Of a DNA stretch of 64,000 nt, positions 406 to 19,302 are shown one piece after another; within the stretch, counting starts at the first letter, position 1; each line of letters opens with the position of its first letter. Source of the stretch: Bacteroidales bacterium (GTDB lineage: Bacteria > Bacteroidota > Bacteroidia > Bacteroidales > WCHB1-69); NCBI GenBank assembly GCA_024400835.1, contig JAKSMC010000005.1:27456-91455 (forward strand), read 5' to 3'. A program made the position numbers and the translations under genes. A model generated the notes under the pieces. That model saw nothing but the letters and a program-made list of their open reading frames with translations. It was not told the origin of the DNA and made no database searches.

Positions 406-417
406 GGTTAACGAATA

Positions 418-828: not shown

Positions 829-914
829 TTTTTTGTTTTTCAATCTATCATTTCTTGTGTGACTTCCTGGTCTATTTTCATTATCTTATTAGTTGCCGGT
901 TGTATCTTGAAAGC

Positions 915-929
915 GTTACAATTTGTAAC
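915..929. promoter_or_regulatory. Perfect 7-1-7 palindrome GTTACAAtTTGTAAC in the leader of the TM-TIR operon (candidate operator)
   Basis: Read directly from the sequence. It lies between the only TAnnTTTG box (1047..1040) and the ATG at 828. Confidence 0.3.
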
Positions 930-1039
930 GGTTATTTTTTTCTCAGGTATCAGTCGTTTTTTTACGTACAATCCGTATGTTGGATTTGTTCTTCTTTCGT
1001 CATCAGTGATTTGTTGTTAGCGTGAGTTAACTGTTTTCG

Positions 1040-1066
1040 CAAAGATACAACTTTTCAAGATTATTG
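1040..1066 (-). promoter_or_regulatory. Bacteroidota-type -7 box (TATCTTTG on the minus strand, 1047..1040) preceded by the conserved motif CAATAATCTTGAAAAG (1066..1051)
   Basis: The minus strand reads CAATAATCTTGAAAAGTTGTATCTTTGCG. No other CAAAnnTA exists on the plus strand between 829 and 1040. Confidence 0.45.
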
Positions 1067-1079
1067 CCAATTGCTAATT

Positions 1080-2342
1080 TTATTGAAGTTCCGGCACTTT
1101 AATGTCGTATTTTGTCACGAGGTGGTCGTAGATGTCGTGCATCAGCTGGATATTATCTTCATTCAACATCGTGGGCTCAAACATCGTATTGCCAAAATGG
1201 GAGAGCACGTTGAGGGCGTTGGCGTGCAGGCGTTCAAATCCTTCGGTGTCCGCATCCTTTGCCGTAAATTCCTGTCCGCCAAAATGGAAGGTGATGTCGT
1301 CCAATATATGTCCGAGAGGCCCGTTCTTCATATTGCTTTGTCCCAACACTTGTGCGAACTGCTCCACGATGCCACGCATCACGTTAAAGTGATAACGTTG
1401 CAAACGGCAGGGCTCGCCATTGTCGTGGGCATCCAACTCTTTCTTAATCTGTGCCAGCATCGAAAGATGGTAAAACGATGGGGTATGCTCGGGCAGCGGC
1501 GAAGATTTGATATCGCCATTGCTGGATACATTGCGGTATAGATTAATGCCGAAACATCCTTTCAATCCGTTGCGCATTGTGTTGTAGAAAACAGTGTGGT
1601 GGGTTGAGATGATAAAGAAAGGTAGTCCCAATGTGTCTTGAATATTGGTGGCTTTGTAGTGGTTGAAGATGTCCTCGTGGCATTTGTTGATCAGCTCGAA
1701 AAGCTGGCTGGCAAAAAGGATGACGTTGTTGTCATCAAGCGAAGACATCGGGTCGTCGATGTAGATATATTTAATGTTCTTGAATTTGTCATCGCCCGTA
1801 ATCACCAGTTCCATAATGAAACGAAAAACACTCCATACGAAGAGTCGTTCTTCGCCGCGGGAGATTTTGATATAATCGGCTGTGTTCTTGTCGTCAATAT
1901 CGCGCGAAAACCAAACCTCGCGTGGAATATTGTCGCCCGTAACCACGATGTTGCCTTTCTCATCGTGATAATTGCTCTCAAAATGGGCCTTGAATCCGGC
2001 CAGCGTGCGGAGGTAGGCATTAATGCCTTCGCCATAATCATATCCGTCAAGGCCTTGTATGAGTTCCGAATCGGTGTTGATTACCATATATCGTTCGGCA
2101 TCGTTATCAAGGTCGTTGTGCCAGGTGAAGAGGTCCTCGGTAAAGGCATTGTAATAAAGCGTGTGATGCTGGTCATTCACTCTGTCTTGGTGAGCAAATT
2201 CGTATGAAAGTCGCGTCTTTCCAGTGCCGTTGAATGCAAACAGAAGCACGCAGTTGGTGAATTTCGTAACATTATTATTCGAATAAAAACCCAATCGGCT
2301 TTGAATGAACTTGACGATATTTTTGTATTCGTTTCTCTCCAT
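1080..2342 (-). CDS. AAA_13-type ABC-like ATPase, PrrC-like (candidate anticodon nuclease)
   Basis: ORF 1080..2348. The first ATG is at 2342 (MERNEYKN). Walker A is FNGTGKTRLS, the signature-like motif is SRGEERLF, and Walker B/D-loop is IYIDDPMSSLD. The C-terminal NVMRGIVEQF carries an R-x3-E spacing like the PrrC nuclease motif. It is adjacent to type I hsdR, as in the E. coli prr locus. Confidence 0.6.
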   Translation of the reverse strand: MERNEYKNIVKFIQSRLGFYSNNNVTKFTNCVLLFAFNGTGKTRLSYEFAHQDRVNDQHHTLYYNAFTEDLFTWHNDLDNDAERYMVINTDSELIQGLDGYDYGEGINAYLRTLAGFKAHFESNYHDEKGNIVVTGDNIPREVWFSRDIDDKNTADYIKISRGEERLFVWSVFRFIMELVITGDDKFKNIKYIYIDDPMSSLDDNNVILFASQLFELINKCHEDIFNHYKATNIQDTLGLPFFIISTHHTVFYNTMRNGLKGCFGINLYRNVSSNGDIKSSPLPEHTPSFYHLSMLAQIKKELDAHDNGEPCRLQRYHFNVMRGIVEQFAQVLGQSNMKNGPLGHILDDITFHFGGQEFTAKDADTEGFERLHANALNVLSHFGNTMFEPTMLNEDNIQLMHDIYDHLVTKYDIKVPELQ

Positions 2343-2347
2343 AATCA

Positions 2348-2385
2348 ATTGCTAATTTCTAATTGCACATTGCTAATTTCTAATT
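2348..2385. repeat. Tandem direct repeat, 2 x ATTGCTAATTTCTAATT with 21-bp period, filling the spacer between two genes
   Basis: Identical 17-mers at 2348..2364 and 2369..2385. Confidence 0.85.
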
Positions 2386-2395
2386 ACTTCAATCA

Positions 2396-3745
2396 TCATA
2401 ACAAAGGTGCCATATACAGAGGAAGGAACAGCATACCGTTTTCTTCTTTCAAATCGGCTCCATGCAACACGATCGGGGTTGTGAGGTATTCGCCGAATTT
2501 CTCCACACATTTTCGCAATGAAGAGAGCGTATAGCGCTGAGAGGATTTCACCTCAATAGGCGTGATGTTGTGCCTGGATGTCAATTTGCTTTTGGCGGTC
2601 AGGAAATCAATTTCCATACGTTCGCTTGCATCATCGCGGTTAGAATTGCTATAGAAATACAATTTGTGGCCATTGGAAGCAAGCATTTGGGCAACAATAT
2701 TTTCAACGAGCATACCTTCGTTCACTTCCAATTTGTTGAGTAGTAATTTCTGATAGAGTTCGATGGGCACTTTCCCGTTTTCGTCGAAAGCGTGGGCGAC
2801 AAGTAGCCCCGTATCGCCCATATAGCATTTGAGGGTGTTGCGTTCCATATTGAGGCGAAGCCCCACATTGGGTGCGGTACAGTTATAGCAGATGTTCACA
2901 ATGCCTGCGTCGGCAAGCCAGAAGAAGGCGTCGTCGTAGTCGCGGTAAGACGCGCCAGACTCCAATGCCGACAATCGGAATTTCTTCTCGTGTTTTTGAA
3001 GTTGAGAGGGAATCTGTTCAAAAATGCTTTTCACTTTGTGTTCCAAGCCTGCTGCGTATTTGGAAATATCGTTGGTATAAACCTGCAAAATTCCCCGTTT
3101 CACTTGGTCCACCTTGTCGAAATCCTTGGAGTTGACAAATGCTTGAACGGCTTGCGGCATTCCACCCACAATCATATAGGTGCGGAGATACTCCATTGCT
3201 TTGCGGTGGTGTGGCCCCATCTGCTGGCGTCTTTCGAAACATTGCCGTATATATGGCATCAATAAGTCATTGCCAATAGCCCAAAGAAATTCCTCGAAGT
3301 CCATCGGAAACATCGGTATGGCCTCCTCTTCGGAAGGAATGACAATGTCGCGCACATTTTTCTTGATGCTGACAAGCGAACCTGTTTCAATATAATGGAA
3401 TCGACCGTCAGCCACAAGATATTTGATGGCGGCACGGGCGCGTGGACAAAGCTGCACCTCGTCAAAAACTATGACAGATTTGCCCGGGGTGAGTCGCGTG
3501 CCGTAATGGATTTGCAGGTTCATCAGCAGTGTGTCGAGGTCTTCCAAGAGCGTGTCGAACCAGTTCCAAAGCACTTTATCGGCCTTGTTGAAGTCAATGA
3601 GTAGATATGAATCGTATTCGTTGCGGGCAAATTCCTCCACAATATAGCTTTTACCAATCCGTCGTGCCCCTTCTATCAGCACAGCTGTTGCACCATTTCG
3701 TTGTGTCTTCCACTCTAATAACTTATTGTAAATCTTTCTTTTCAT
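2396..3745 (-). CDS. AAA+ ATPase with C-terminal DUF4143 / PD-(D/E)xK-like domain (COG1373 type), copy 1
   Basis: ORF 2396..3790. The likely start is the ATG at 3745 (MKRKIYNKLLEW). Walker A is EGARRIGKS and Walker B is VIVFDEVQ. The C-terminal EIDFL...IEVKSS has a D...ExK pattern. Confidence 0.85.
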   Translation of the reverse strand: MKRKIYNKLLEWKTQRNGATAVLIEGARRIGKSYIVEEFARNEYDSYLLIDFNKADKVLWNWFDTLLEDLDTLLMNLQIHYGTRLTPGKSVIVFDEVQLCPRARAAIKYLVADGRFHYIETGSLVSIKKNVRDIVIPSEEEAIPMFPMDFEEFLWAIGNDLLMPYIRQCFERRQQMGPHHRKAMEYLRTYMIVGGMPQAVQAFVNSKDFDKVDQVKRGILQVYTNDISKYAAGLEHKVKSIFEQIPSQLQKHEKKFRLSALESGASYRDYDDAFFWLADAGIVNICYNCTAPNVGLRLNMERNTLKCYMGDTGLLVAHAFDENGKVPIELYQKLLLNKLEVNEGMLVENIVAQMLASNGHKLYFYSNSNRDDASERMEIDFLTAKSKLTSRHNITPIEVKSSQRYTLSSLRKCVEKFGEYLTTPIVLHGADLKEENGMLFLPLYMAPLL

Positions 3746-3757
3746 AAACAAACTCAG

Positions 3758-3839
3758 CTTTTCAAGATTATTGAACGTGCAAAAATACAACTTTTCAAGA
3801 TTATTGAAAGCACAAATTTACAACTTTTCAAGATTATTG
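3758..3839. repeat. Three tandem copies (33-bp period) of CTTTTCAAGATTATTG, two of them each followed by a -7-like box on the minus strand
   Basis: Motif copies at 3758..3773, 3791..3806 and 3824..3839. Minus-strand TATTTTTG is at 3787..3780 and TAAATTTG at 3820..3813. The array lies directly upstream of the ATPase ATG at 3745. Confidence 0.85.
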
Positions 3840-3873
3840 GTATTTTTCGTTGATAATTGCTCATTACTAATTG

Positions 3874-6828
3874 CTAATTAACATACGCGCTCAATCCTTC
3901 AATCTTACGTCCTGCGGCAAGGCGTTTGAAATGCGGAGCCAGGTCTTTCATAAGGTTCTCTTTGGCGGCCTTGCGTACTTTCCAACCCAGATTGATAAAG
4001 ATTTCGTTGAGCTTGTCTTCGTCAATACGGGCGAAACGAATGGTCTCGGTGATGAAGGCCAGCAGAACGTCCTTATCCACGCCGTAGTTATCCGCAATTT
4101 CGGCAAAGGTGTTGTTAATCATCTGCTCCTTGAATTGCTGATACCCGCTTTTGACTTCATCGTCAGACATTTCGGTGCCCAAGGGCAACGTATCTATGTA
4201 GGCGGAGACATACTCTTTCTCGTCGGCCATATCGGAACTGGAGATGAGGATGGAGAGCAGTTGTTCCTTGGTCATCTTCTGTTTGTGTGTTGGGCGCGTG
4301 TAGAGGGAAATCAGGTGCATAATGTAATCGTAATCCACCAGGGCAGAGGCGAAGAGCACCAACTCGAAATCATAATCTACGTATATGTGGTCGGATGAAT
4401 TGCCATCCAAGATTTTGGCTTTCACTTCTTTGGCCGTTTCCAGATAGGCGCCTCGGAAAGCGCGGAGGGTGTCTTCATCGAGGTCGTTTTCAATCGTCTC
4501 TTTCTGTTCAGGGGTGAGGTCGGTATATTGGTCCAGACGCGTTTTGAGCGCCTGCACTTTCTTGAAAGCGTCGATGAAGTCCATTTTGGCTTCGGTGCCG
4601 GAGAGGTTTCCAACTTCCTCGGGAGTGCAATCGAGCCCGTGCCCGTTCATAGTGGAAGCGAGCGCTTGCACGGCGTTGTGATAATCGCGAATCACCTCGG
4701 AGGCGGGCTCTACCAGCCAGATTTTCTTGTCCGCTTCCACATCGGTGCCGGAAAACAGCGTGATGGCTTCATCCACGCGGGCACGCAAATCGCGATAGCA
4801 AATGATATTGCCGTAGGGCTTGGTGGCGTTGAGAATACGGTTGGTTCTGGAAAATGCCTGGATGAGGGAGTGGTATTTGAGGTCTTTATCCACATAAAGT
4901 GTGTTGAGGTACTTGGAGTCGAAACCCGTCAGCAGCATATCCACGACAATGACGATGTCGATTTTTTGGTCTTGAGGGATGGAAGAATTGGGGAACTTTT
5001 GACTCTTGATACGTTTTTGCACATCACGGTAGTAGTCGTCGAAGTTGTTGATTGAGTGCGCCGTGCCAAACCGGCTGTTATACAGCGTGATGATGTTGTT
5101 GAGCGCCAACTTTTTGCCAGAAGGGTCCTTCTGAAGGTCCTGCTTTTCCTGCTCCAAATCATCCTGCAGTTGCTCAATGTCTTTATTGCCTTCGGCAGGA
5201 GGCGTGAAAACGCAAGCAATGTTCAGGTATTTGTAGTTCGGTTTGGTGACCATAAATTCCTCTTGTTTCTGCTCGAAAAGGCGGTGGTAGGCGATGGCCT
5301 CATCAATAGAGCTGGTGGCGAAGATGGCATTGAATTTGCGGTGGTTGGTGGCCGCATCGTGTTTCAGCAGAATGTTCTCCACAATGGCCTCTTGAGAAGG
5401 CTTAACGATTTGGTCTCCATTTTCTCCGTGGTAGTAGTCGATGTGAAATTGCAGTACATTTTTATCATCAATGGCATTGGTGATGGTATATTGGTGGAGT
5501 TGCTTTTGAAATACGTCTTTTGTGGTAACGTAGCTGGCCGTTGTTCCATCCACTCTGGTGTAGGAACTGTTGTCTTCAAAAATAGGTGTTCCCGTAAAAC
5601 CGAACATCTGGGCATTCGGGAAGAACTCCTCGATGGCACGACGGTTTTCGCCAAACTGGCTGCGATGGCATTCGTCGAAAATGAAGATGATGTGTTTGTC
5701 TTTGAGCTTGTGGAGGCGTTCCACATAGTTCTGACGGTTGTTGGGGTCCAGTGCCAGACCGAGTTTTTGGATGGTGGTCACAATCACTTTGTCGGCGTAG
5801 TCGTCCGAGCACAAGCGATTGACGAGTGCGCCGGTGTTGATGTTTTCTTCCACGCATCCTTCTTGGAACTTGTTGAATTCATCGCGGGTTTGGGTGTCCA
5901 AGTCTTTGCGATCAACCACAAAGATGCACTTTTCGACGTTTGTATTTTCCTTCAGCAGAGTAGAAGCCTTAAAAGAAGTCAGCGTCTTTCCGGAACCGGT
6001 TGTGTGCCAGATATAGCCATTGCCGGAATTTTGGTCAACGCATTGCAAGATACTTTCGACAGCGTAAATCTGGTACGGGCGCATCACCATCATCTGCCTG
6101 GTACTTTGTACGAGGACCATATAGCGGCTGATGAGGCGTCCGAGCGTACATTTCGGCAACATCAGGGAAGTAAAGGCGTGCAGATTCAGCACCTTGTGCC
6201 CTTCGTGGTTGGCAGCCCGACAAACCGGAAGGTATTGTTCGTCGGCATCAAATTTGAAAAACTCGTCATTATTGTTGGCGAAATAAAGCGTATTGGAAGC
6301 GCCGTTGCTCACAATGAACAGCTGCATAAAACACATCAGAGTGTTGGTATAGCCATTGCCACGATCTTTCTTATATTTTGCTATTTGTTCGATAGCTTTG
6401 ATTGGGGAGATGGTCACGTCCTTAAGTTCGATTTGTACCAGTGGAAGTCCATTGATAAGGATGACCACATCATAACGATGATTGCTGTCTTCCGTGTTGA
6501 TACGGAGCTGGTTGCACACCTCGTACGTGTTTTTGCACCAGTCTTTGATGTTGACGAGTGTATAGTTGAGCGGTGTGCCGTCGTCGCGAATGAACGTCTG
6601 CTTTTCACGAAGTGTTTGTGAAGCCTTGAACACATCCGGGGTGATGATGTCGCCAAGAAGTCTGTCAAATTCATGGTCGGAAAGGTGAACGAAATTCAGC
6701 TTCTCGAATTTCTCTCGGAAATTATTGCGAAGAGTTTCCGAATTGCGGATGTCGTTGCGATAAACGTAGTTTAACTCTTGAAGATGGCATATCAGTTCTT
6801 GTTCGATTGTTGATTCTTTAGCGCTCAT
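3874..6828 (-). CDS. hsdR: Type I restriction enzyme R subunit (HsdR)
   Basis: ORF 3874..6909. The likely start is the ATG at 6828 (MSAKESTIEQ), 45 nt downstream of a -7 box. N-terminal nuclease motif is YDVVILINGLPLVQIELK (D...ExK). SF2 motor motifs are HTTGSGKTLT and IFDECHRSQ. About 985 aa, long helical C-terminus. Confidence 0.9.
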   Translation of the reverse strand: MSAKESTIEQELICHLQELNYVYRNDIRNSETLRNNFREKFEKLNFVHLSDHEFDRLLGDIITPDVFKASQTLREKQTFIRDDGTPLNYTLVNIKDWCKNTYEVCNQLRINTEDSNHRYDVVILINGLPLVQIELKDVTISPIKAIEQIAKYKKDRGNGYTNTLMCFMQLFIVSNGASNTLYFANNNDEFFKFDADEQYLPVCRAANHEGHKVLNLHAFTSLMLPKCTLGRLISRYMVLVQSTRQMMVMRPYQIYAVESILQCVDQNSGNGYIWHTTGSGKTLTSFKASTLLKENTNVEKCIFVVDRKDLDTQTRDEFNKFQEGCVEENINTGALVNRLCSDDYADKVIVTTIQKLGLALDPNNRQNYVERLHKLKDKHIIFIFDECHRSQFGENRRAIEEFFPNAQMFGFTGTPIFEDNSSYTRVDGTTASYVTTKDVFQKQLHQYTITNAIDDKNVLQFHIDYYHGENGDQIVKPSQEAIVENILLKHDAATNHRKFNAIFATSSIDEAIAYHRLFEQKQEEFMVTKPNYKYLNIACVFTPPAEGNKDIEQLQDDLEQEKQDLQKDPSGKKLALNNIITLYNSRFGTAHSINNFDDYYRDVQKRIKSQKFPNSSIPQDQKIDIVIVVDMLLTGFDSKYLNTLYVDKDLKYHSLIQAFSRTNRILNATKPYGNIICYRDLRARVDEAITLFSGTDVEADKKIWLVEPASEVIRDYHNAVQALASTMNGHGLDCTPEEVGNLSGTEAKMDFIDAFKKVQALKTRLDQYTDLTPEQKETIENDLDEDTLRAFRGAYLETAKEVKAKILDGNSSDHIYVDYDFELVLFASALVDYDYIMHLISLYTRPTHKQKMTKEQLLSILISSSDMADEKEYVSAYIDTLPLGTEMSDDEVKSGYQQFKEQMINNTFAEIADNYGVDKDVLLAFITETIRFARIDEDKLNEIFINLGWKVRKAAKENLMKDLAPHFKRLAAGRKIEGLSAYVN

Positions 6829-6872
6829 TCTGATTGTATTCTTATGGTTTTGTCTGTTTTGATTTACGGCTG

Positions 6873-6908
6873 CAAAAATACAGCGGGGTTGTGCAATCTT
6901 TTTGCACA
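6873..6908 (-). promoter_or_regulatory. hsdR promoter -7 box (TATTTTTG, 6880..6873) preceded by inverted repeat TGTGCAA-N5-TTGCACA (6890..6908)
   Basis: Both elements were read directly. The inverted repeat sits right after the WYL gene stop (6911) and upstream of the -7 box. Confidence 0.4.
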
Positions 6909-6910
6909 AA

Positions 6911-7921
6911 TCATTCTTCCCTATATTTTTCTGTCATTTTTTCTGCAAATTCTGCCATTTTAAGTCGTACATCTGCTGGTTCAAGCACTTCAAGGTCTGG
7001 CCCGTATGCGAGGAGAAGTTGGTACAATTCCTTGTTCGGGATGACTTTTAATTCAATAATGCCCTCGGAGGCGCGATGGTTGCGCTGTGACGGGTGAAGT
7101 GGTTTGGAAAGGACGTACGGCAGGCGTTTCTGCGCAATGCGCAGGACTATATTCTTTATTTCTTCGTTGGTTTTTGTCACGCCGACAAAGTCTTCGAAAT
7201 ATTCACCAAAGTCGCAGAATGTGTTTTCGACAAATTCAACGGGTGCCGGTTTGAGGCTCTTGATTCTGTCTAAGGGCATATTGACAATGTTATTGTGAAT
7301 GCCATCGGTGGTGAATCCCAGTAGAAACCATCGATTGTTATATTGTTTTATAAAATATGGATGCACAATGCTTTCGAATGATGGTTTGCCGTATGGTTCG
7401 TAGGTGATGTGCAGAGGCTGCTTGCTGATGATGGCCTCAAACAGTGGGCTAAGATACTCTAAGCCGGAGGCCTCCTCGTTGGTGTCGAATGCGATTACGC
7501 TTTGCGGTGATGGTAATGTGAATCCATATTTATCCTCCAACTGTCCGACAATCTCCTGTATCCTTTCGAACTGCGGCAACCCGTGGAACTGTTGAAGGAG
7601 TAGCATAAGCGATTTCAGCTGCTCAAGCTGTTGCGCATTGAGATCATTCTTCCAAATGGAATAATTGGGGTCTGCATATCGGTAGAAACGTCTTCCTCCG
7701 TTGTAGCAGGGAGTTGCAAATACGACGTTCCAATCGTGGTTCGATTCCATTGCCCGGATGTCATATTGAACCGTGCGCTTTGAAACATTCGGTTGGTCGT
7801 TGTTCTCAAGAGTGCGGTTTACAGCTTTTAGCAAATCGTCTATATAATAGTATTTGACTCGGTCGCTGAAACAGCGGTCAAGGGCCTGGTAACGCAAAGT
7901 AGCAAGTTTGGTGTTTGGCAT
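6911..7921 (-). CDS. HTH-WYL domain transcriptional regulator (BrxR/CapW-like architecture)
   Basis: ORF 6911..7960. The likely start is the ATG at 7921 (MPNTKLATLRYQALD), downstream of TACTTTTG. It has an N-terminal wHTH-like segment. The central region YFIKQYNNRWFLLGF is typical of WYL domains. The C-terminal extension resembles WCX. Confidence 0.8.
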   Translation of the reverse strand: MPNTKLATLRYQALDRCFSDRVKYYYIDDLLKAVNRTLENNDQPNVSKRTVQYDIRAMESNHDWNVVFATPCYNGGRRFYRYADPNYSIWKNDLNAQQLEQLKSLMLLLQQFHGLPQFERIQEIVGQLEDKYGFTLPSPQSVIAFDTNEEASGLEYLSPLFEAIISKQPLHITYEPYGKPSFESIVHPYFIKQYNNRWFLLGFTTDGIHNNIVNMPLDRIKSLKPAPVEFVENTFCDFGEYFEDFVGVTKTNEEIKNIVLRIAQKRLPYVLSKPLHPSQRNHRASEGIIELKVIPNKELYQLLLAYGPDLEVLEPADVRLKMAEFAEKMTEKYREE

Positions 7922-7947
7922 TCGCGAAAGTGTTGGTTTTGATAGCG

Positions 7948-7955
7948 CAAAAGTA
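7948..7955 (-). promoter_or_regulatory. -7 box TACTTTTG for the WYL regulator gene
   Basis: The minus strand reads TACTTTTG, about 26 nt upstream of the ATG at 7921. Confidence 0.45.
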
Positions 7956-8182
7956 CGCATTTTTTTGTTGATATTTCAGTATGATAAGGAATAAAAAATG
8001 TTGTATTCTTCTTTTCTGGCAGAAAAAGGAGATGAAGCGAGAATTATGGTAAGCGTGCCTTGAAAACCGCCCAATGCAATCACAGAGACATTTGTTTTAT
8101 TTCGTCAGGTGTGGCCGAAATGACCAATCTGCTCGGACAATTTGCAAGAAAGAAAGGTCTGACTTTTTATTAAAATTATTAG

Positions 8183-8190
8183 TACTTTTG
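8183..8190 (+). promoter_or_regulatory. -7 box TACTTTTG for the nuclease gene
   Basis: Matches TAnnTTTG, 42 nt upstream of the ATG at 8232. Confidence 0.45.
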
Positions 8191-8231
8191 CGACTGAAAA
8201 TAGAAGTACGATAGAACCTTAATAAACCATT

Positions 8232-9059
8232 ATGAAACTAATATTCTTTTCATTTTTATTTGGCCTGTTCTCACTCTATTCATGTGAAAATAAACCCCAA
8301 ACAGTTTCGCCTCCAATGTTGGAAACAAAAACGGTTGAAGATAACAGTACTCATTCTGCTTCCCGTTCGATAGACCTTTCCCTCCTCGAAATACCTCAAG
8401 GCGGCTCCGAAGGGACTATCATTTCCCATCTCGGCTACGCCCTCTCTTACAACCACCAGAACCTCACTCCCAACTGGGTGGCGTACGAGCTGACCGCTGA
8501 GGAAGCAAACGGACAGGTCCCGCGAAGCAACTGCTATGCCGAAGACCCGGATATCAAAGGACGACAGGCTACATTGGACGATTACCGTGGCTCGGGCTGG
8601 GATAGGGGACACCTGGCACCCGCTGCCGATATGAAATGGTCGCCGCAAGCTATGGACGAGAGTTTCTACCTTTCCAATATGTGCCCGCAAAACCAAACCT
8701 TTAATGGCGGCTCTTGGGAAACCACCGAAAAGATGGGACGTCGCATCGCAAAGCAGTACGGCAAGGTCTATATCGTCTGCGGCCCAATCTATACGGACCA
8801 CCAATTCGGCACTATCGGGGCAAACAAAGTGGCTGTCCCGGATGCCTTCTTCAAGGCCTTCCTGATTGAGTCGAACGGCACGTATGCCGCCATCGGCTTC
8901 CTGATGCAGAATGTCCCCGAACACCAGGATCTGAAGGCGTCTTCTATGTCCATCGATGAGCTGGAAGACATCATCCATCTCGACCTTTTCCACAATTTGG
9001 ACGATGCCGTCGAAAACGAAATAGAAGCGCAGGTGGTGAAAAAATATTGGGGGATATAA
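8232..9059 (+). CDS. DNA/RNA non-specific endonuclease (NucA/EndoG beta-beta-alpha-Me family), lipoprotein-type signal
   Basis: Active-site motif is WDRGHLAPAADM, followed by SNMCPQ. The N-terminal signal has LFSLYSC (lipobox-like). Confidence 0.9.
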   Translation: MKLIFFSFLFGLFSLYSCENKPQTVSPPMLETKTVEDNSTHSASRSIDLSLLEIPQGGSEGTIISHLGYALSYNHQNLTPNWVAYELTAEEANGQVPRSNCYAEDPDIKGRQATLDDYRGSGWDRGHLAPAADMKWSPQAMDESFYLSNMCPQNQTFNGGSWETTEKMGRRIAKQYGKVYIVCGPIYTDHQFGTIGANKVAVPDAFFKAFLIESNGTYAAIGFLMQNVPEHQDLKASSMSIDELEDIIHLDLFHNLDDAVENEIEAQVVKKYWGI

Positions 9060-9072
9060 GGAGGATGTGTCT
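8767..9072 (+). repeat. Direct repeat copy A (306 bp): 3' end of the nuclease gene plus 13 bp
   Basis: Aligns base for base with 10568..10873 (offset 1801 bp). I counted 8 mismatches and no gaps. Confidence 0.95.
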
Positions 9073-9106
9073 GTATTTAAAGTCGAATTTTTTGAACTTA
9101 GAATTT

Positions 9107-10378
9107 TTACATATCTAATTGCAACCATTTCGTGGCAGGCACTACGTGGATGGTCTCGTTATCTTTCTCAATCACCTCCTCGGTATTGAATGTGATCAGG
9201 GTGAGTTTTCGGCAATTGAATTTCTTGGCGCCTTGCACCAAACCATTGATTTCGCGCTGGCGTGTTTTCTCGGACGTAATCTTGTAACTCACCTGTATCA
9301 GCTCCTGTACCATGCCGTTTTTGGCCACCAGAAAATCCACATCAAAAGACTTTTCCCTGTAGTAAAATATTTCGGCATATTGGTGATGATAGCGGCGCAG
9401 CAGTTCAATGCACACCACATTTTCCAATCGCCATCCCAAGTTTTCAAGCGAAAAGGTGTCGTTGCGCTCGCTTGCCATTGCCACATCCACCACATAGCAT
9501 TTCTCATTGCAGACTCGTTCGCGTGCCTTAAACGAGAACTTCTTCACCCCGACAAACAAAAAGGCCTCTTTCAAGTACCCGAAATACTTGTCTGCCGTAT
9601 GGTTGGAAATGCCAAATAACTTGCCGATAACCGTGGCCGAAAATTCCTGTGCGAAATTGTCAGCCAGATAGGCTGCCATTTTTCTCAATATTTCTTCTTG
9701 GCGGATTTTGAAACGACGTGCTATGTCATTGCGGATAATGGCATTGAACAATCCGTCGATATAGTTCTTGGGATTGTCCTCTTTCTGCAATTCGGGGAAT
9801 CCGCCAGTAGTAAGATATTTGTGCAGAGCATTTTGTCGCAACCCAACCGCCTTGGTGGTAATGGATGTGGTGTCAATGTTGTTTATGAGGCAATACTCGG
9901 CAAACGAAAAGGGATACAGCTCCACTTTGTTGTGGCGTCCGGTAAGGTGCGTGATGAGTTCATTGGACAGCAACTTGGAATTGGAACCCGTAAGGAATAT
10001 GCGTTTCTTTTGCCGGAGCAGGCGGTTTACAAACAACGGCCACGATTCCACATTCTGAATCTCATCAAAAAACAGGCAATCAACATTGCCATAGACAATA
10101 TAAATCGCTTCCAATAACTTGTTCAGATCGTCGGATTGCAGGGTTGCCAAGCGCTCATCGTCAAAGTTCACAAATGCGCATTCAATGGCATTGTCAACCA
10201 GGTATTTTGTGCAAAGGGTGGATTTTCCACTTCGCCTTACACCAATGACTACTTGTGCCAAACTGCTGTCTGGTGACAGTTGCGAAGCTTCGAGGCGTTC
10301 ACAGAAGGAACTCATGTCTTCGGACTTGATTTCCTCGCGTTGATCGGCTATTATCGTGGCTAATTCTTCTACTAACAT
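9107..10378 (-). CDS. AAA+ ATPase with DUF4143 domain (COG1373 type), copy 2
   Basis: Walker A is GVRRSGKS and Walker B is LFFDEIQ. The C-terminal DVDFLV...IQVSYK has Q and S in place of the ExK residues seen in copy 1. Confidence 0.85.
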   Translation of the reverse strand: MLVEELATIIADQREEIKSEDMSSFCERLEASQLSPDSSLAQVVIGVRRSGKSTLCTKYLVDNAIECAFVNFDDERLATLQSDDLNKLLEAIYIVYGNVDCLFFDEIQNVESWPLFVNRLLRQKKRIFLTGSNSKLLSNELITHLTGRHNKVELYPFSFAEYCLINNIDTTSITTKAVGLRQNALHKYLTTGGFPELQKEDNPKNYIDGLFNAIIRNDIARRFKIRQEEILRKMAAYLADNFAQEFSATVIGKLFGISNHTADKYFGYLKEAFLFVGVKKFSFKARERVCNEKCYVVDVAMASERNDTFSLENLGWRLENVVCIELLRRYHHQYAEIFYYREKSFDVDFLVAKNGMVQELIQVSYKITSEKTRQREINGLVQGAKKFNCRKLTLITFNTEEVIEKDNETIHVVPATKWLQLDM

Positions 10379-10381
10379 ACT

Positions 10382-10403
10382 CCGAAAATTTTCGGCAAAG
10401 ATA
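10382..10403 (-). promoter_or_regulatory. -7 box TATCTTTG (10403..10396) followed by perfect palindrome CCGAAAATTTTCGG (10395..10382) in the short leader of ATPase copy 2
   Basis: The minus strand reads TTGTATCTTTGCCGAAAATTTTCGGAGTATG. Confidence 0.45.
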
Positions 10404-10563
10404 CAATAAATTTCCTTATTTTCCTAAATTTATTATTGCAAACTTCCTTATTTTTCCAATTTTGTTATAGTAAAGTTCCTTGTTTTTCTATTGATTTTTA
10501 GTAATATATTGAAAATCATTTATATAAAAATAAACCACAAACTTTTCAAGATTATTCACATCA

Positions 10564-10860
10564 TTGATCTATATCGTCTGCGGCCCCATCTATACGAACC
10601 ACCAATACGGCACTATCGGGGCAAACAAAGTGGCTGTCCCGGATGCCTTCTTCAAGGCCTTCCTGATTGAGTCGAACGGCACGTATGCCGCCATCGGCTT
10701 CCTGATGCAGAATGTCCCCGAACACCAGGATCTGAAGGCGTCTTCTATGTCCATCGATGAGCTGGAAGACATCATCCATCTCGACCTTTTCCACAATTTG
10801 GACGATGCCGTCGAAAACGAAATAGAGGCGCAGGTGGTGAAAAGATATTGGGGAATATAG
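10564..10860 (+). pseudogene. Detached 3' fragment of the non-specific nuclease gene (last ~97 codons)
   Basis: The translation IYIVCGPIYTNHQYGTIGANKVAVPDAFF...VVKRYWGI is near-identical to the C-terminus of 8232..9059. It lacks the catalytic DRGH region and the signal peptide. Confidence 0.85.
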
Positions 10861-10873
10861 GGCGGATGTGTCT
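10568..10873 (+). repeat. Direct repeat copy B (306 bp)
   Basis: See copy A. The conserved CTTTTCAAGATTATT motif (10542..10556) lies immediately to its left. Confidence 0.95.
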
Positions 10874-11001
10874 CTCTACTTCTTACATTGACCTTTGGGG
10901 AGTCTCCCCACCTGAAACTTGAAACCTTGGCGCGGACGCAATTCATTGCGCAACCTCAACGCTATGTGTCGTCTGTGTGTTAGAATGAAGATCCTGAAAA
11001 A

Positions 11002-12300
11002 TCAATGGTCAAATTCGAACACCTGCTTTTTCTGCATCAGGAACATCACCAATCCGCGGAGGGTCAGGAAGATGAGGAAGGCAATCCAAAGGCCGTCGTT
11101 GCCCAATGGACCGCGCAAGATAAGATAGAAGACGAAAAATGCGCTCGTGGAGATGAACATGGTGTTGCGCATGGCGGCCGAGGCGGTGGCTCCAATGTAG
11201 ATGCCGTCGTAGATGAAGGCCGCAAATCCCGTGAAGGGCACTAATACGGTCCACAAGATGTACTCCATAGCAGTGTCAATGACCTGCTTGTCGTTGGTGA
11301 GTATCCACAACAGCCATTTGCCACAGGTTGCGTAAATCACCGTGAAGGTGGCGGCTAATCCCACACCCCATAAGAGCAACTTGCGCACGGACTCTTTCAA
11401 ACGTTCGCCGTCTCGCGCGCCAATGAAACGCCCTACCAATGACTCGCCGGCGTAGGCAAAGCCGTCCATGATGTAGGATAACAGCGTGAATAACTGCATG
11501 AGCAGCGTGTTGGCGGCTAAGATGTTGTCACCCATATTGGCGGAGATATACGGTATGAAGGTGAAGACGGCTATCAGGCAGATGGAGCGGAGGAAGATGT
11601 CGGAGTTGACTTTGAAGAAACGCACCATCTCATTGAGCTTCAGACTCTCTTTGATATGGATTTCGTATCGCAATTCGCCGTAGTGCTTGAACCACATGAA
11701 GGTGGCCATGGCCATGCCGCTGTATTGGGCAATGACCGTGCCCCAGGCGACGCCCGCGATGCCGGCATGGAAGGCAAATACGAATATCAACGAGCAGATG
11801 ATGTTGACGATGTTCAGCAGAATGGCTATCCACATCGGCGTCTTGGCGTCCTGCATCCCGATGAACCAGCCCTTGACCACATACAATCCCAGGGTGGCAG
11901 GCGCCGCCCAAATGCGTATGTAGAAGTATGTCAGCATTAATTCGATGGACTCCGGACTGCTGTGGATGAACCGCTTGCAAAGCAGTCCGATGGGCCACTG
12001 CAACAGGATGAGACAGACTGCCACGATGAGGGCAATGGCCATGCCGCGAACCAACACGTTCAGGTACTCGGCTCGGTCTTCGGCTCCGTAGGCTTGGGCA
12101 GTCAGACCGCTCGTGCCGGCGCGCAGGAACCCGAACCCCCAGTAGATGAGGTTGAACACCATCGTGGCCAACGCAATGGCCGCAATGTAACTGGCATTGC
12201 CGATGTGCCCGACAATGGCCACATCCACCATGCCCAGCAAGGGCACGGTGATGTTCGTGATGATGCTCGGCAATGCAAGACGGAGGATCTCCCGATTCAT
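11002..12300 (-). CDS. MATE family efflux transporter
   Basis: 432 aa with about 12 hydrophobic spans. The N-terminus MNREILRLALPSIITNITVPLLGMVDVAIVGHIG is typical of the MatE family. Confidence 0.9.
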   Translation of the reverse strand: MNREILRLALPSIITNITVPLLGMVDVAIVGHIGNASYIAAIALATMVFNLIYWGFGFLRAGTSGLTAQAYGAEDRAEYLNVLVRGMAIALIVAVCLILLQWPIGLLCKRFIHSSPESIELMLTYFYIRIWAAPATLGLYVVKGWFIGMQDAKTPMWIAILLNIVNIICSLIFVFAFHAGIAGVAWGTVIAQYSGMAMATFMWFKHYGELRYEIHIKESLKLNEMVRFFKVNSDIFLRSICLIAVFTFIPYISANMGDNILAANTLLMQLFTLLSYIMDGFAYAGESLVGRFIGARDGERLKESVRKLLLWGVGLAATFTVIYATCGKWLLWILTNDKQVIDTAMEYILWTVLVPFTGFAAFIYDGIYIGATASAAMRNTMFISTSAFFVFYLILRGPLGNDGLWIAFLIFLTLRGLVMFLMQKKQVFEFDH

Positions 12301-12354
12301 AGGGGCAAAAGGTTCAAAGTTTAAGGTTTAAAGTTTAAAAGCTAAAAACTGATA

Positions 12355-14418
12355 TTATTGGCGCGTGCTTCTTTCCTTGATAATCTCTTCCTGCTTAGCG
12401 GCTGGCATCGGCATATATTGGTAGAATTCCATAGAGTAGTTGGCGCGGCCGGAGGTTACGTTGCGCAGGGCTGTAGCATAGCCGAACATTTCCATCAGCG
12501 GACAGAAACCGTCCAGCTTTTGGGAACCCTTTCTGAAACGGCGCATGTTCTCGATGCGGCCGCGACGTTTGTTGAGGTCGCGGGTGACATTGCCGATGAA
12601 GTCGTCAGGGGTGTTGACTTCTATCTTCATGACCGGCTCCATGATGATGGGGTTGGCTTTGCGGAAGGCCTGTTTGAAACATTGCGCGGCGCAAAGTTGG
12701 AACGCCATGTCACTGGAGTCAACAGGATGGTAGCTGCCATCGACCAGTACGCACTTGACATCCACTACCGGGTATTCGGCAATAGGACTCTTCTCCATTG
12801 CTTTGCGCAAGCCCTTTTCAATAGACGGGATGTACTCTTTGGGGATGACGCCGCCCTTGGTGACATCCACAAACTCGAAGCCCTTGCCGGGGTTCGGTTC
12901 GAAGCGGATGACGGTGTTTGCAAATTGTCCCTTGCCACCGCTCTGCTTGACATGCTTGTAGGCATTTTCAACAGAGGTGGTGATTGTTTCGCGGAAGGAT
13001 ACGGAGGGCTCGCCAACGGAGATGGGCACCTTGAACTCGTCGCGGATGCGCTCCACGAGGATCTCCAAGTGCAGTTCGCCCATGCCGGCGATGATGGTCT
13101 CTTCCGTCTCTTCATCGTAATGGGAGTGGAAAGAGGGGTCTTCGTTTGTGAGCTTGGCTAAGGCTTCGCCCAGCTTGTCGCGGCTCTTCTTGTCTTCCAA
13201 GTTCACTTTCATCTCGATGACGGCAGGCGGCACGGAGATGGATTCCAAAAGAACGGGTTGGCTTTCGTCGCACAGGGTGTCGCCCGTGCGGGTGTATTTC
13301 ATACCGACGAGGGCGACGATTTCGCCGCAGCCGGCTTCTGTGATTTCCTGTCTCTCTTTCGCTTTGATGCGGAAGATTCGTCCGACGCGCTCGTTCTTGC
13401 CCTTGTTGGTGTTGTAAACACTCATGCCGCTGGTGAGCTTGCCGCTGACGATGCGGATGAAGGTCTGCTGGCCCACATACGGGTCGTTGATGAGCTTGAA
13501 TGCCAAGGCGGAGAATTTCTCGTTGTTGGACGGATTGCGTTGGATGGTCTTTTCTTCATCGTACGGGTCGTGTGCCATCACGGCGCCGATGTCGGTAGGG
13601 GAGGGCAGATAGTCCACGATGGCGTCGAGCAGCAACTGGATGCCCTTGTTTTTGTAGGCCGCACCGCAGAGCACTGGCGTGACCAGCAACTTGATGGTGG
13701 ATTCGCGGATGGCCTTCTTCAGCATCTCTTCCGAGATCTCGCCGTCTTCCAGATAAAGGGTGGCGATATCATCGTCAAAGTCGGCGAGTTTCTCAATCAT
13801 CGACTTGCGGGCTTCTGTGGCCGCTGCAACGAGTTCGGCGGGAATATCGCCCACGATGCGCTCTTTTTCGTTGAAGGTGATAGACTTCATAGTGACCAAG
13901 TCAATCATGCCTTGGAAGTCGCTTTCGGCCCCGATGGGAAGGTGGATGGGCATGGCGTTGGCGCCGAGGTATTTGTTCATCTGGCTGACCACCTCGTTGA
14001 AGTCGGCGCCCGTGCGGTCCATCTTGTTGACGAAGGCGATGCGGGGCACGCGGTATTTCTCGGATTGGTTCCAGACGGTTTCACTCTGCGGTTCCACGCC
14101 ACCTACGGCGCAGAATACGGCAACCATGCCGTCGATGACGCGCAGGGAACGCTCTACCTCGATGGTGAAATCGACGTGGCCCGGCGTGTCAATGAGGTTT
14201 ATCTGGTGATCTTTCCAGGTGGCCGTGATGGCGGCGGATGCGATGGTGATACCACGCTCCTGCTCTTGCTTCATGAAGTCCATGGTGGCTTGCCCGTCGT
14301 GGGTTTCACCTACTTTTCTATTTACACCTGTGAAAAATAATATTCTTTCTGATACAGTGGTCTTGCCTGCATCAATGTGTGCGGCGATGCCGATGTTTCT
14401 GAGTTTGGAGATTTGCAT
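12355..14418 (-). CDS. Elongation factor G paralog (translational GTPase)
   Basis: Motifs are [17 protein letters not shown] and NKMD. The EF-G-type segment is [23 protein letters not shown]. 687 aa. It is not in a ribosomal-protein (str) context. Confidence 0.9.
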
Positions 14419-14468
14419 TTTGGGAAAGTTAGAAGTGAGAAGTTAGAAGTGAGAGGTTTAAGGTTTAA

Positions 14469-15680: not shown

Positions 15681-15739
15681 TGGAATAGGGTTTCGTTTTG
15701 AACCCGCGAAAATACGAAAAAGTAACGAATCTTCATCTG

Positions 15740-17629: not shown

Positions 17630-17680
17630 GAGGGTGCAAAAGTACGAAATTAATGTGCTTCCCAATTTGGATTTTTTTAA

Positions 17681-17688
17681 TACCTTTG
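17681..17688 (+). promoter_or_regulatory. -7 box TACCTTTG for mnmA
   Basis: Lies 20 nt upstream of the ATG at 17708. It is divergent from the helicase promoter. Confidence 0.45.
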
Positions 17689-17707
17689 CGGCCTCAAATA
17701 CAGACAA

Positions 17708-18766: not shown

Positions 18767-18793
18767 ATTTTTAACTGACAAAATTATAATATC

Positions 18794-19243: not shown

Positions 19244-19302
19244 TTCCGAACTTGAAACTTGGATCTTGAAACTTGAAACCATAACATCCCCTTCCTGACA
19301 AT

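What the first reader, a model, noticed from the sequence alone, without database searches (positions are those of the whole stretch)
8767..10873. 1.5-kb ATPase cassette bracketed by 306-bp direct repeats of the nuclease gene 3' end (Campbell-type insertion signature)
8767..9072 and 10568..10873 align without gaps. I counted 8 mismatches, including silent-looking and conservative codon changes and TAA versus TAG stops.

Between them lie 1495 bp containing only the DUF4143 ATPase gene and its promoter region.

The left copy completes an intact nuclease ORF. The right copy is a detached 97-codon fragment.

This is the topology expected if a circular molecule carrying the ATPase gene plus a ~300-bp piece of a homologous nuclease gene integrated by a single crossover. 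It is also consistent with an 1801-bp tandem-duplication intermediate.

The topology implies that this COG1373-type ATPase gene moves as a self-contained, promoter-bearing cassette. It also predicts precise excision by recombination between the repeats.
Basis: seen in the sequence. Interest (0 to 1): 0.7.

Follow-up and report, generated by a model that had tools for sequence, protein, structure and literature searches.

The report
Nuclease-gene relic beside a portable defence gene
A candidate anti-phage ATPase gene in an uncultured Bacteroidales genome sits between an intact secreted-nuclease gene and a leftover 3' piece of a second nuclease allele; this is a real, stable recombination scar in a fast-changing defence island, not demonstrated self-mobility of the ATPase.

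Summary
Window 8767-9072 and 10568-10873 are 306-bp direct repeats with 8 mismatches. They bracket 1495 bp that hold one AAA_14+DUF4143 ATPase gene.

It is not an assembly artefact. The same arrangement occurs in a second conspecific strain and, partly eroded, in another genomic context. Five different alleles of the 98-aa fragment all begin MIYIVCG, which suggests they share the same junction.

The ATPase is a PADLOC PDC-S01 defence candidate under purifying selection. Copies with about 95.5% nucleotide identity lie inside type I restriction-modification (RM) operons elsewhere (hsdR-ATPase-prrC). So the gene is an exchangeable, promoter-bearing module, but with boundaries at about 9118-10556, not the repeat edges.

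The right repeat plus 77 bp downstream matches a different nuclease allele lineage (L006 type) at both of its ends. Neither copy shows the chimerism expected from a crossover inside the repeat.

In this strain the central 219 bp of the two copies are identical (P=0.0003). In the sister strain the differences are spread along the repeat. That points to later gene conversion.

No empty site or excision product was found, although a nuclease-to-Y junction exists in another context.

Best reading: a recombination scar with one illegitimate joint. A Campbell-type origin remains possible but is neither needed nor favoured. Interest is low to moderate.

The parts
8232..9059 (+). Intact DNA/RNA non-specific endonuclease gene (275 aa). 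It has a lipoprotein-type signal ending LYSC and a DRGH active-site motif. It behaves as a discrete module (8225-9073) found in several unrelated contexts.
   Evidence: Pfam Endonuclease_NS, E=2e-54. EndoG/NucA/Serratia nuclease structures match. DRGH at residues 124-127. Homology blocks in L004, L005, L008 and L094 start at 8225 and end at 9064-9073.
8767..9072 (+). Left copy of the 306-bp direct repeat: codons 179-275 of the nuclease, the TAA stop, and 13 bp beyond it.
9072..9112 (.). A 41-bp 'tail' that belongs to the nuclease module, not to the ATPase cassette. It matches DNA about 1.5 kb downstream of the L006-type nuclease.
   Evidence: Window 9072-9112 matches L006 12362-12402 at 85% over 41 bp, E=9e-8.
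9107..10378 (-). AAA_14 + DUF4143 ATPase gene (423 aa), a PADLOC PDC-S01 phage-defence candidate. It is intact and under purifying selection.
   Evidence: Pfam AAA_14 E=2e-32 and DUF4143 E=2e-20. PADLOC PDC-S01 E=1e-97. dN/dS about 0.05-0.12 against L010, L009, L093 and L004.
9118..10556 (-). Core of the portable ATPase module: the block shared with copies embedded in type I RM operons. It runs from the upstream motif to 3-4 codons before the stop.
   Evidence: L010 3617-5055 and L009 7823-9268 match window 10556-9118/9111 at 95.5%. Each context supplies its own C-terminal tail after TGG TTG CAA.
10396..10403 (-). Bacteroidetes-type -7 promoter element TATCTTTG (consensus TAnnTTTG), starting 25 nt upstream of the ATPase start codon. 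Promoter function is inferred.
   Evidence: Motif search. The region is conserved in L010.
10408..10471 (.). Two tandem 32-bp repeats in the region upstream of the ATPase. Function unknown; possibly an operator.
   Evidence: Family D3. Present in L010.
10542..10556 (-). Motif AATAATCTTGAAAAG, which marks the upstream edge of the ATPase module. The same motif follows hsdR (three copies) and prrC in this window.
   Evidence: 5 exact copies, all on the minus strand, against 0.28 expected. Homology to L009/L010 switches at this motif.
10557..10567 (.). An 11-bp filler (CACATCATTGA) of unassigned origin at the illegitimate joint between the ATPase module and the truncated nuclease copy. It supplies the TTG start of the 98-aa ORF.
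10568..10873 (+). Right copy of the repeat: a 5'-truncated nuclease pseudogene (98-aa ORF at 10564-10860, no catalytic motif), of the L006 allele type.
   Evidence: It is 5-6 differences from the L006 full-length allele, whereas in L004 the left and right copies differ from each other at 11 sites.
10874..10950 (+). A 77-bp stretch ('Y77'), the native downstream flank of the L006-type nuclease allele. It is contiguous with the right copy.
   Evidence: L006 10548-10930 matches window 10568-10950 at 97.1% over 383 bp.
11002..12300 (-). MATE efflux gene, the first gene beyond the relic on the conserved (core) side.
   Evidence: Pfam MatE. Conserved with EF-G in L004 and L088.
8063..8181 (.). A 119-bp gene remnant upstream of the nuclease. 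The same remnant lies downstream of the nuclease module in L006, so the module is circularly permuted between the two loci.
   Evidence: 95% to L006 12515-12633. Weak protein similarity to the C-terminal part of an AlbA_2 protein of L008.
1080..7960 (-). Neighbouring defence operon: WYL regulator (6911-7960), hsdR (3874-6909), a second and very different PDC-S01 ATPase (2396-3790, 464 aa), and PrrC (1080-2348). In L010 the hsdR/prrC slot holds the 423-aa-type ATPase instead.
   Evidence: Pfam and PADLOC. L010 blocks match window 6819-3788, 10556-9118 and 2373-1079. The two ATPases are about 20% identical.

Best explanation
The repeat is a recombination scar in a hypervariable defence island. 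It is not the footprint of an autonomously moving ATPase.

**What is joined to what.** A single-gene defence candidate (PDC-S01: an AAA+ ATPase fused to a PD-(D/E)XK-type DUF4143 domain, with its own promoter) normally sits inside type I RM operons between hsdR and prrC or hsdS. Here it is joined on its stop-codon side to an intact nuclease module (nuclease plus 41-bp tail). On its promoter side it is joined, through an illegitimate joint at 10557-10567/10568, to the 3' third of a second nuclease allele of the L006 type. That allele still carries its own downstream flank (10874-10950).

**Most likely event (inferred).** DNA carrying nuclease, tail and ATPase recombined with a resident nuclease-Y77-MATE locus. 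There was one homologous exchange in or upstream of the nuclease. There was also one illegitimate end-join at nuclease position 8767. This is homology-facilitated illegitimate recombination. An equivalent route is replacement of the DNA between two neighbouring nuclease modules.

**Afterwards.** The arrangement was inherited by several strains. In the window strain the central 219 bp of the two copies were later homogenised by gene conversion, with at least one left-to-right footprint.

**Function.** The ATPase is a functional gene. The right-hand nuclease fragment is a pseudogene.

**Shown:** the anatomy, the allele affinities, the stability, the other contexts of the ATPase, and purifying selection on it. 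**Inferred:** the order of events and the type of recombination.
For: - **Real and stable.** The arrangement is also in L004/L086 and L005+L088. It is in L093 as window 8981-10868 at 98%, next to unrelated genes. Five 98-aa fragment alleles all begin MIYIVCG.
- **Two allele lineages.** The right copies are 5-6 differences from the L006 full-length nuclease. In L004 the left and right copies differ at 11 sites in the coding part. The right copies share the L006 states at repeat positions 20, 40, 293 and 296, and the following 77 bp. The left copies have their own states.
- **The ATPase module's own boundaries (9118-10556) differ from the repeat edges.** It lies in hsdR-X-prrC (L010) and hsdR-X-...-hsdS (L009) at 95.5%, and in L011-L016 at 83%. 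The window's own hsdR/prrC slot holds a paralogue about 20% identical.
- **The 41 bp at 9072-9112 belong to the nuclease module**.
- **Similar scars elsewhere.** The island holds another gene remnant at 8063-8181. Other nuclease truncations exist elsewhere: the 121-aa fragment in L089-L092 starting at window 8730, and a 92-bp remnant in L093.
- **Gene conversion.** There is a 219-bp mismatch-free core (P=0.0003). The L004 copies differ at 8 sites within that core. The window's right copy carries the left-type T at repeat position 179.
- **No mobility genes or ends.** The insert has no recombinase, and no inverted repeats or tRNA were found.
- **The ATPase is functional.** dN/dS is 0.05-0.12.
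- **Literature.** PDC-S01 is a known embedded defence candidate, and the single most frequent defence locus type called in rumen genomes and MAGs (bioRxiv 10.1101/2024.01.29.577857; PMC13356809; PMC12988326).
Against: - No genome with the presumed precursor states was recovered. Neither nuclease-Y77-MATE at this locus nor nuclease-tail-ATPase without the relic was seen, so the direction and number of events are inferred.
- Nuclease alleles are mosaic (D/N, F/Y and K/R combinations assort freely) and gene conversion is active. The allele-uniformity argument against an internal crossover could therefore have been erased or created secondarily.
- No clear microhomology is visible at the 10567/10568 joint.
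- Only a few conspecific contigs exist in the collections searched.
Confidence: 0.55

Rival explanations
1. Campbell-type integration. A 1.8-kb circle carrying the ATPase gene plus about 306 bp of nuclease 3' end integrated by a single homologous crossover into a resident nuclease gene. It can excise again by recombination between the repeats.
For: - The topology fits exactly: an intact copy, the insert, then a 5'-truncated copy.
- The copies come from different alleles, as expected if one is foreign.
- L093 carries the unit ATPase + right repeat (plus a 92-bp left remnant) in a different genomic context.
- The nuclease-to-Y77 'empty' junction exists in L006/L007.
- The repeats do interact, as the gene conversion shows.
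Against: - Neither copy is chimeric in L004. The right copy shares the L006-type states from repeat position 20 to 296, so a crossover would have to lie in the first 19 or last 10 bp.
- The circle itself would first need the same illegitimate ATPase|nuclease joint, so the model adds a step.
- No empty site at the MATE locus was found in the conspecific contigs.
- In its other contexts the ATPase module carries no nuclease arm.
- No plasmid, phage or viral-contig relative was found.
Confidence: 0.2
2. Two complete nuclease modules once lay side by side, as a heteroallelic tandem. The ATPase cassette then replaced the DNA between the tail of the first module and the middle of the second, truncating the second copy.
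For: - The nuclease module is circularly permuted between the window (119-bp remnant, nuclease, tail41) and L006 (nuclease ... tail41, 112 bp, 119-bp remnant). A tandem or circular history of the nuclease module would explain this.
- Other 5'-truncations of the nuclease with a new defence cassette upstream exist, as in L089 compared with L008.
Against: - No locus with two complete nuclease genes was recovered.
- The model needs two illegitimate joints in one lineage, plus a prior heteroallelic duplication.
Confidence: 0.15
3. In-situ duplication. The 306 bp were duplicated from one and the same gene, either as a very long target-site duplication when the cassette inserted or as part of an 1801-bp tandem-duplication intermediate.
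For: In the window strain the copies are 97.4% identical, with an identical 219-bp core.
Against: - In the sister strain the copies differ at 11 sites in the coding part of the repeat, spread along it. The right copy groups with a nuclease allele from another locus, including its downstream flank.
- The sequence after the right copy does not repeat the ATPase unit.
Confidence: 0.05
4. Assembly artefact: a mis-joined or expanded repeat in a metagenome-assembled genome.
For: The source is a MAG. Short-read assemblies of another sample break inside this region: L005 ends at window 9718 and L088 ends at window 9954.
Against: - A unitig spans both junctions and carries copy-specific SNPs.
- Independent assemblies give the same order with diverged copies.
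Confidence: 0.02

Closest known systems
PDC-S01, the PADLOC 'phage defence candidate' found by guilt-by-embedding in type I RM, BREX and DISARM loci (Payne et al., bioRxiv 10.1101/2024.01.29.577857)
   Same: The ATPase matches the PDC-S01 HMM at E=1e-97 and has the AAA_14 + DUF4143 architecture. DUF4143 is listed in the PD-(D/E)XK superfamily (PMC3424549). Its closest relatives are embedded between hsdR and prrC or hsdS.
   Different: In this window the copy is not embedded. It lies about 1.1 kb outside the WYL-hsdR operon, between a nuclease gene and a nuclease relic. Anti-phage activity of PDC-S01 has not been validated (PMC12988326).
Campbell-type single-crossover integration of a circular DNA that carries a 3'-terminal gene fragment
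   Same: Direct repeats of the homologous segment flank the insert, with one intact and one 5'-truncated gene copy.
   Different: Neither repeat copy is chimeric. No circle, replicon or empty site was found. The truncated copy keeps its own allele type and its native downstream flank.
Homology-facilitated illegitimate recombination, in which foreign DNA is acquired through one homologous anchor and one illegitimate joint. It is described for naturally transformable bacteria; this comparison rests on my own knowledge and was not checked in the library.
   Same: There is one side of homology (the nuclease) and one non-homologous joint with a few bases of filler (10557-10567). Donor-type and resident-type alleles are juxtaposed.
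   Different: Classical cases usually give insertion with deletion rather than a 306-bp duplication. The transformability of this organism is unknown.
[quoted passage not shown]
   Same: The window operon is WYL, hsdR, PDC-S01, PrrC (PADLOC PrrC E=1e-83). The slot after hsdR holds different cassettes in different genomes.
   Different: The finding concerns a copy that left that slot. Short repeated linkers (AATAATCTTGAAAAG and AGCAATT runs) mark the block boundaries here. I did not find these linkers described in the papers I consulted.
Genomic islands that integrate into the 3' end of a gene and carry a replacement 3' end (attL/attR duplications)
   Same: The target gene stays intact, and a displaced 3' end lies on the far side of the insert.
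   Different: The insert has no integrase. The repeat is 306 bp and diverged, not a short identical att core. The insert is a single gene.

Membership tests
Campbell-type (single-crossover) insertion | Direct repeats of one homologous segment flank the inserted DNA, with one complete and one truncated gene copy. | tested here: met
   8767-9072 and 10568-10873. There is an intact 275-aa ORF and a 98-aa fragment.
Campbell-type (single-crossover) insertion | The crossover lies inside the homology, so when donor and resident alleles differ both copies are reciprocal chimeras. | tested here: not met
   In L004 the right copy shares the L006-type states at repeat positions 20, 40, 293 and 296. The left copy has its own states. 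No switch point is visible. Caveat: mosaic alleles and gene conversion could mask a switch point.
Campbell-type (single-crossover) insertion | A circular donor molecule exists, together with empty sites or excision products in the population. | tested here: inconclusive
   All conspecific contigs are filled. The nuclease-to-Y77 junction is seen only in another context. Reads could not be searched.
PDC-S01 defence candidate (AAA_14 + DUF4143) | A match to the PADLOC PDC-S01 models, with the AAA_14 + DUF4143 domain order. | tested here: met
   PDLC04787 E=1e-97 over 385 of 412 profile positions. Pfam AAA_14 at residues 41-163 and DUF4143 at 217-357.
PDC-S01 defence candidate (AAA_14 + DUF4143) | Embedded in or next to other defence systems. 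| tested here: met
   Relatives with 98% and 90% protein identity lie inside type I RM operons. The window copy is next to a WYL-hsdR-PDC-S01-PrrC operon.
PDC-S01 defence candidate (AAA_14 + DUF4143) | Protects against phage. | not testable with these tools
Site-specific integrative element targeting a gene's 3' end | Integrase or recombinase gene inside the element, and a short identical att core. | tested here: not met
   The ATPase is the only gene in the insert, and its only Pfam families are AAA_14 and DUF4143. The repeat is 306 bp and diverged.
Transposon or insertion sequence | A transposase, terminal inverted repeats, and a short target-site duplication. | tested here: not met
   No inverted repeats at 9073 or 10567. 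No transposase domain.
DNA/RNA non-specific endonuclease (Endonuclease_NS, EndoG/NucA type) | A Pfam match that includes the DRGH catalytic motif. | tested here: met
   The left gene has E=2e-54 and DRGH at residues 124-127. The right fragment covers only profile positions 138-222 and lacks the motif.

The most novel reading that the evidence does not exclude
The ATPase plus its 306-bp nuclease arm is an integrase-free, homology-guided mobile defence cassette. Recombination between the repeats releases a 1.8-kb circle. Host homologous recombination then re-inserts the circle into any of the nuclease alleles that are common in the defence islands of these Bacteroidales. This would make a widespread gene serve as a landing pad for PDC-S01. 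The presence of the unit in a second genomic context (L093) and the active exchange between the repeats do not exclude this.
Probability: 0.1. Interest if true: 0.6.

Novelty: new member of a known kind. Interest (0 to 1): 0.3.

Why it matters
How single defence genes come to be embedded in, and leave, other defence systems is still open. The paper that defined PDC-S01 says the significance of embedding remains to be explored.

This locus gives a base-pair-level snapshot of that process. The same promoter-bearing PDC-S01 module is seen in three contexts with the same upstream edge. One context is a scar that juxtaposes two nuclease alleles, which have since been homogenised by gene conversion.

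The locus is a useful worked example of defence-island turnover and a caution against reading repeat-insert-repeat topology as evidence of mobility. It does not reveal a new mechanism.

Tried and rejected
- **A decayed nuclease 5' end just upstream of the right copy.** The 25-bp similarity between 8278-8302 and 10518-10542 (D5) scores 30. Shuffles give a mean of 21.9 and a maximum of 35. I treat it as chance.
- **Empty-site search via core genes.**
  - The exact EF-G look-up gave only filled or truncated contigs.
  - The MATE scan of JGI metagenomes returned only relatives with at most 79% protein identity over a full-length match (one 76-residue fragment reached 84%), and none had a nuclease or ATPase nearby.
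  - The GTDB scan with the nuclease gave two loci. Only one is close, and it lies in an unrelated context.
- **Nuclease allele P0134, chosen as a possible empty site.** It turned out to be the L008-type context, with a different ATPase downstream.
- **Mobile-element carriers.** There was no DNA match to phages and only an 88-bp nuclease match to one Bacteroides plasmid. No relatives were found on viral contigs.
- **RNA genes.** There is no tRNA in window 1-20000. The only Rfam hit in 7900-11100 was a sub-threshold cow-rumen-4 match (24.6 bits against a 48.5-bit threshold) in the ATPase upstream repeats.
- **Sigma-70 promoter and terminator scan.** It found no more sites than in shuffled sequence.
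- **Solved structures.** None is related to the ATPase by sequence.
- **The idea that DUF4143 ATPases target the nuclease gene.** The ATPase next to the nuclease in L008, L089 and L094 is a 24%-identical paralogue on the other strand. PDC-S01 is the commonest defence locus in rumen genomes (PMC13356809). I therefore treat the adjacency as coincidence.


Full report
**1. Observation**

Window 8767-9072 and 10568-10873 align without gaps over 306 bp. The 8 mismatches are at 8786, 8796, 8806, 9026, 9043, 9053, 9059 and 9062, and similarity stops abruptly on both sides.

- The left copy is the 3' end of a 275-aa Endonuclease_NS gene (8232-9059). That gene has a lipoprotein-type signal and a DRGH motif.
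- The right copy is a 98-aa ORF (10564-10860). It covers only the C-terminal part of the domain and lacks the catalytic motif.
- Between them lie 1495 bp with one gene, a 423-aa AAA_14+DUF4143 ATPase on the minus strand (9107-10378). Its upstream region carries a Bacteroidetes-type -7 box (TATCTTTG) starting 25 nt before the start codon.
- The mismatches are clustered. Three lie in the first 40 bp and five in the last 47 bp, leaving a 219-bp identical core. The chance of this under random placement is P=0.0003.

**2. Not an artefact, and not recent**

- A Logan unitig from SRR17543908 equals window 8996-10637 at 100%. It ends exactly 30 nt beyond the last copy-specific SNP on each side, as a k=31 graph would at a repeat.
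- The source appears to be a Bacteroidales MAG, GCA_024500545.1. Its nuclease and 98-aa fragment are NCBI proteins MCQ2275759 and MCQ2275761.
- An independent ENA assembly (L004/L086) has nuclease, ATPase, 98-aa fragment, MATE, EF-G and onward in the same order, at 98.7% identity over 10.8 kb. A second sample holds the same strain (L005 + L088).
- In that strain the two copies differ at about a dozen positions (11 in the coding part), spread along the repeat.
- The protein cluster holds five different 98-aa alleles. All start MIYIVCG, and that start codon lies in the 11-bp filler at the junction. So the same joint appears widespread.
- No empty site at the MATE locus was found.

**3. What the ATPase is**

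Both this ATPase and a second, about 20%-identical one in the window (2396-3790) match PADLOC PDC-S01, at E=1e-97 and E=7e-114.

- PDC-S01 is a candidate defence gene found by 'guilt-by-embedding' in type I RM, BREX and DISARM loci (bioRxiv 10.1101/2024.01.29.577857).
- It is an ATPase fused to a PD-(D/E)XK-superfamily domain (PMC3424549, PMC12988326).
- It is the single most frequent defence locus type called in rumen genomes and MAGs (PMC13356809). It has not been validated experimentally.

The window to the left of the nuclease is a defence operon on the minus strand: WYL (6911-7960), hsdR (3874-6909), PDC-S01 of 464 aa, and PrrC (1080-2348; PADLOC PrrC E=1e-83).

**4. Where else the ATPase occurs**

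- Proteins 98% identical lie in L009 and L010 directly after hsdR. Relatives 90% identical in protein (83% in DNA) lie in L011-L016 as WYL, hsdR, PrrC-like, ATPase, hsdS, hsdM.
- At the DNA level, L010 is hsdR (96.4% to window 6819-3788), then ATPase (95.5% to window 10556-9118), then prrC (93.8% to window 2373-1079).
- The ATPase is therefore an exchangeable module. In the window its usual slot is occupied by the 464-aa paralogue.
- The upstream edge of the module is the motif AATAATCTTGAAAAG (10542-10556). The downstream edge lies 3-4 codons before the stop, and each context supplies a different tail.
- The gene is under purifying selection in all contexts, with dN/dS 0.05-0.12.

**5. What the nuclease pieces are**

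The nuclease gene is itself a shuffled module. Blocks homologous to window 8225-9064/9073 occur with unrelated flanks on one or both sides in L008 and L094 (followed by a different, 24%-identical DUF4143 ATPase on the plus strand). A nuclease 94% identical in L002 also sits beside unrelated DNA. The L006/L007 allele has a different 5' part.

- **The right copy.** In L006/L007 the nuclease 3' end runs directly into the sequence that follows the right copy here. L006 10548-10930 matches window 10568-10950 at 97.1%. So the right copy plus 77 bp is the tail of an L006-type allele with its native flank.
- **Distances.** The right copies are 5-6 differences from L006. In L004 the left and right copies differ from each other at 11 sites.
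- **Informative sites.** The right copies share the L006 states at repeat positions 20, 40, 293 and 296, that is, at both ends. The left copies have their own states (T at 179, A at 293).
- **The 41-bp tail.** The 41 bp after the left copy (9072-9112) match L006 DNA downstream of its nuclease-Fic unit. They belong to the nuclease module, not to the ATPase.
- **Circular permutation.** A 119-bp gene remnant upstream of the nuclease (8063-8181) lies downstream of that tail in L006. The nuclease module is therefore circularly permuted between the two loci.
- **Other truncations.** L089-L092 keep the nuclease from window 8730 onward behind a different defence cassette. L093 keeps only 92 bp of the left copy, followed by the ATPase and the right copy, between a PLD-helicase/methylase system and an alpha-2-macroglobulin gene.

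**6. Interpretation**

The anatomy is: nuclease (275-aa type) + tail41 | ATPase module (inverted) | 11-bp filler | L006-type nuclease 3' third + Y77 | MATE.

- **In-situ duplication is excluded** by the allele affinities.
- **A Campbell crossover is disfavoured.** A crossover inside the repeat between different alleles must give reciprocal chimeras, and none is seen. It would have to lie in the first 19 or last 10 bp. The Campbell model also first needs an illegitimate joint to make the circle.
- **The most economical reading** is one homologous exchange in or upstream of the nuclease plus one illegitimate end-join at nuclease position 8767. An equivalent route is replacement of the DNA between two neighbouring nuclease modules.
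- **I cannot separate these variants,** because no precursor genome was recovered, and because nuclease alleles are mosaic and recombining. The nuclease is 3.9% diverged between the two conspecific strains, against about 1% elsewhere and 0.7% in the ATPase block.
- **The identical 219-bp core in the window strain is best explained by later gene conversion.** In the sister strain the copies differ at 8 sites within that core. The window's right copy carries the left-type T at repeat position 179. So the repeats do recombine, but what is observed is conversion, not excision.

**7. Comparison with known systems, and verdict**

- The ATPase is a member of the PDC-S01 candidate family. The sequence and architecture tests are met; function is untested.
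- The operon next door is a classical type I RM with embedded PrrC.
- The repeat structure looks like a Campbell insertion but fails the chimera test. It has no integrase, no transposase and no inverted repeats.
- It resembles homology-facilitated illegitimate recombination and the gene remnants typical of defence islands.
- It is a new example of a known kind of event. Its interest lies in showing, at base-pair resolution, how a very common embedded defence candidate relocates.

Noticed in passing
window 1051-1065, 3758-3838, 10542-10556 (all minus strand): The motif AATAATCTTGAAAAG occurs 5 times exactly, against 0.28 expected. Three copies form 33-bp tandem repeats between hsdR and the 464-aa ATPase, one follows prrC, and one lies at the edge of the ATPase module. 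Homology blocks between the window and L009/L010 switch at this motif. The copy number after hsdR is 1 in L009, 2 in L010 and 3 here. It may be a regulatory site or a recombination linker.
   Followed up: partly
window 1063-1074, 2348-2380, 3863-3874 (minus strand); L009 and L010: Runs of an AGCAATT-like heptamer sit at each intercistronic junction of the type I RM operon. The ATPase's altered C-terminal tail in the window could derive from a short deletion between ATTGC repeats in such a run (my reading of the sequences; not tested).
   Followed up: partly
window 2396-3790 (-) compared with L010 3795-5057: The slot between hsdR and prrC holds a 464-aa PDC-S01 paralogue here. In L010 it holds the 423-aa-type ATPase (a 420-aa protein there), although the flanking hsdR and prrC are 94-96% identical. 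The two ATPases are about 20% identical. This is allelic replacement of one defence candidate by a distant paralogue in the same slot.
   Followed up: partly
window 8063-8181; L006 12515-12633; L008 3672-3753: A 119-bp intergenic remnant is shared at 95% with L006 and at 78% with part of an AlbA_2 (Schlafen-like) gene in L008. It appears to be a pseudogene fragment, and it ends 2 bp before the nuclease's putative -7 promoter box TACTTTTG (8183-8190).
   Followed up: partly
L006 10900-10930 and 12160-12190: In L006 the Fic gene downstream of the nuclease is bracketed by a 31-bp direct repeat, equal to window 10920-10950, which contains a CGCAA/TTGCG hairpin. This is another small cassette flanked by repeats in the same module.
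   Followed up: no
window 8225: Homology between the window and the conspecific strain (L004/L005) starts 7 bp before the nuclease start codon. Upstream, the other strain has an L008/L094-type gene instead of the WYL-hsdR operon. The island to the left of the nuclease is therefore replaced between strains that are 98.7% identical.
   Followed up: partly
window 10408-10471 and 10437-10491: Two tandem 32-bp repeats lie upstream of the ATPase promoter and are conserved in L010. They overlap a sub-threshold Rfam match to cow-rumen-4 RNA (24.6 bits against a 48.5-bit threshold, E=0.54), which is probably chance.
   Followed up: no
L011-L013, about 12500-17000: Relatives of the ATPase locus carry a CBASS-like set (SMODS cyclase, TIR-STING) and an AAA_15/RloB pair immediately after the type I RM operon. 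This illustrates how dense these islands are in defence genes.
   Followed up: no
window 51017-61003 (+): A giant 3328-aa ORF with GEVED and CARDB domains and a C-terminal type IX secretion sorting domain. It is unrelated to the finding.
   Followed up: no
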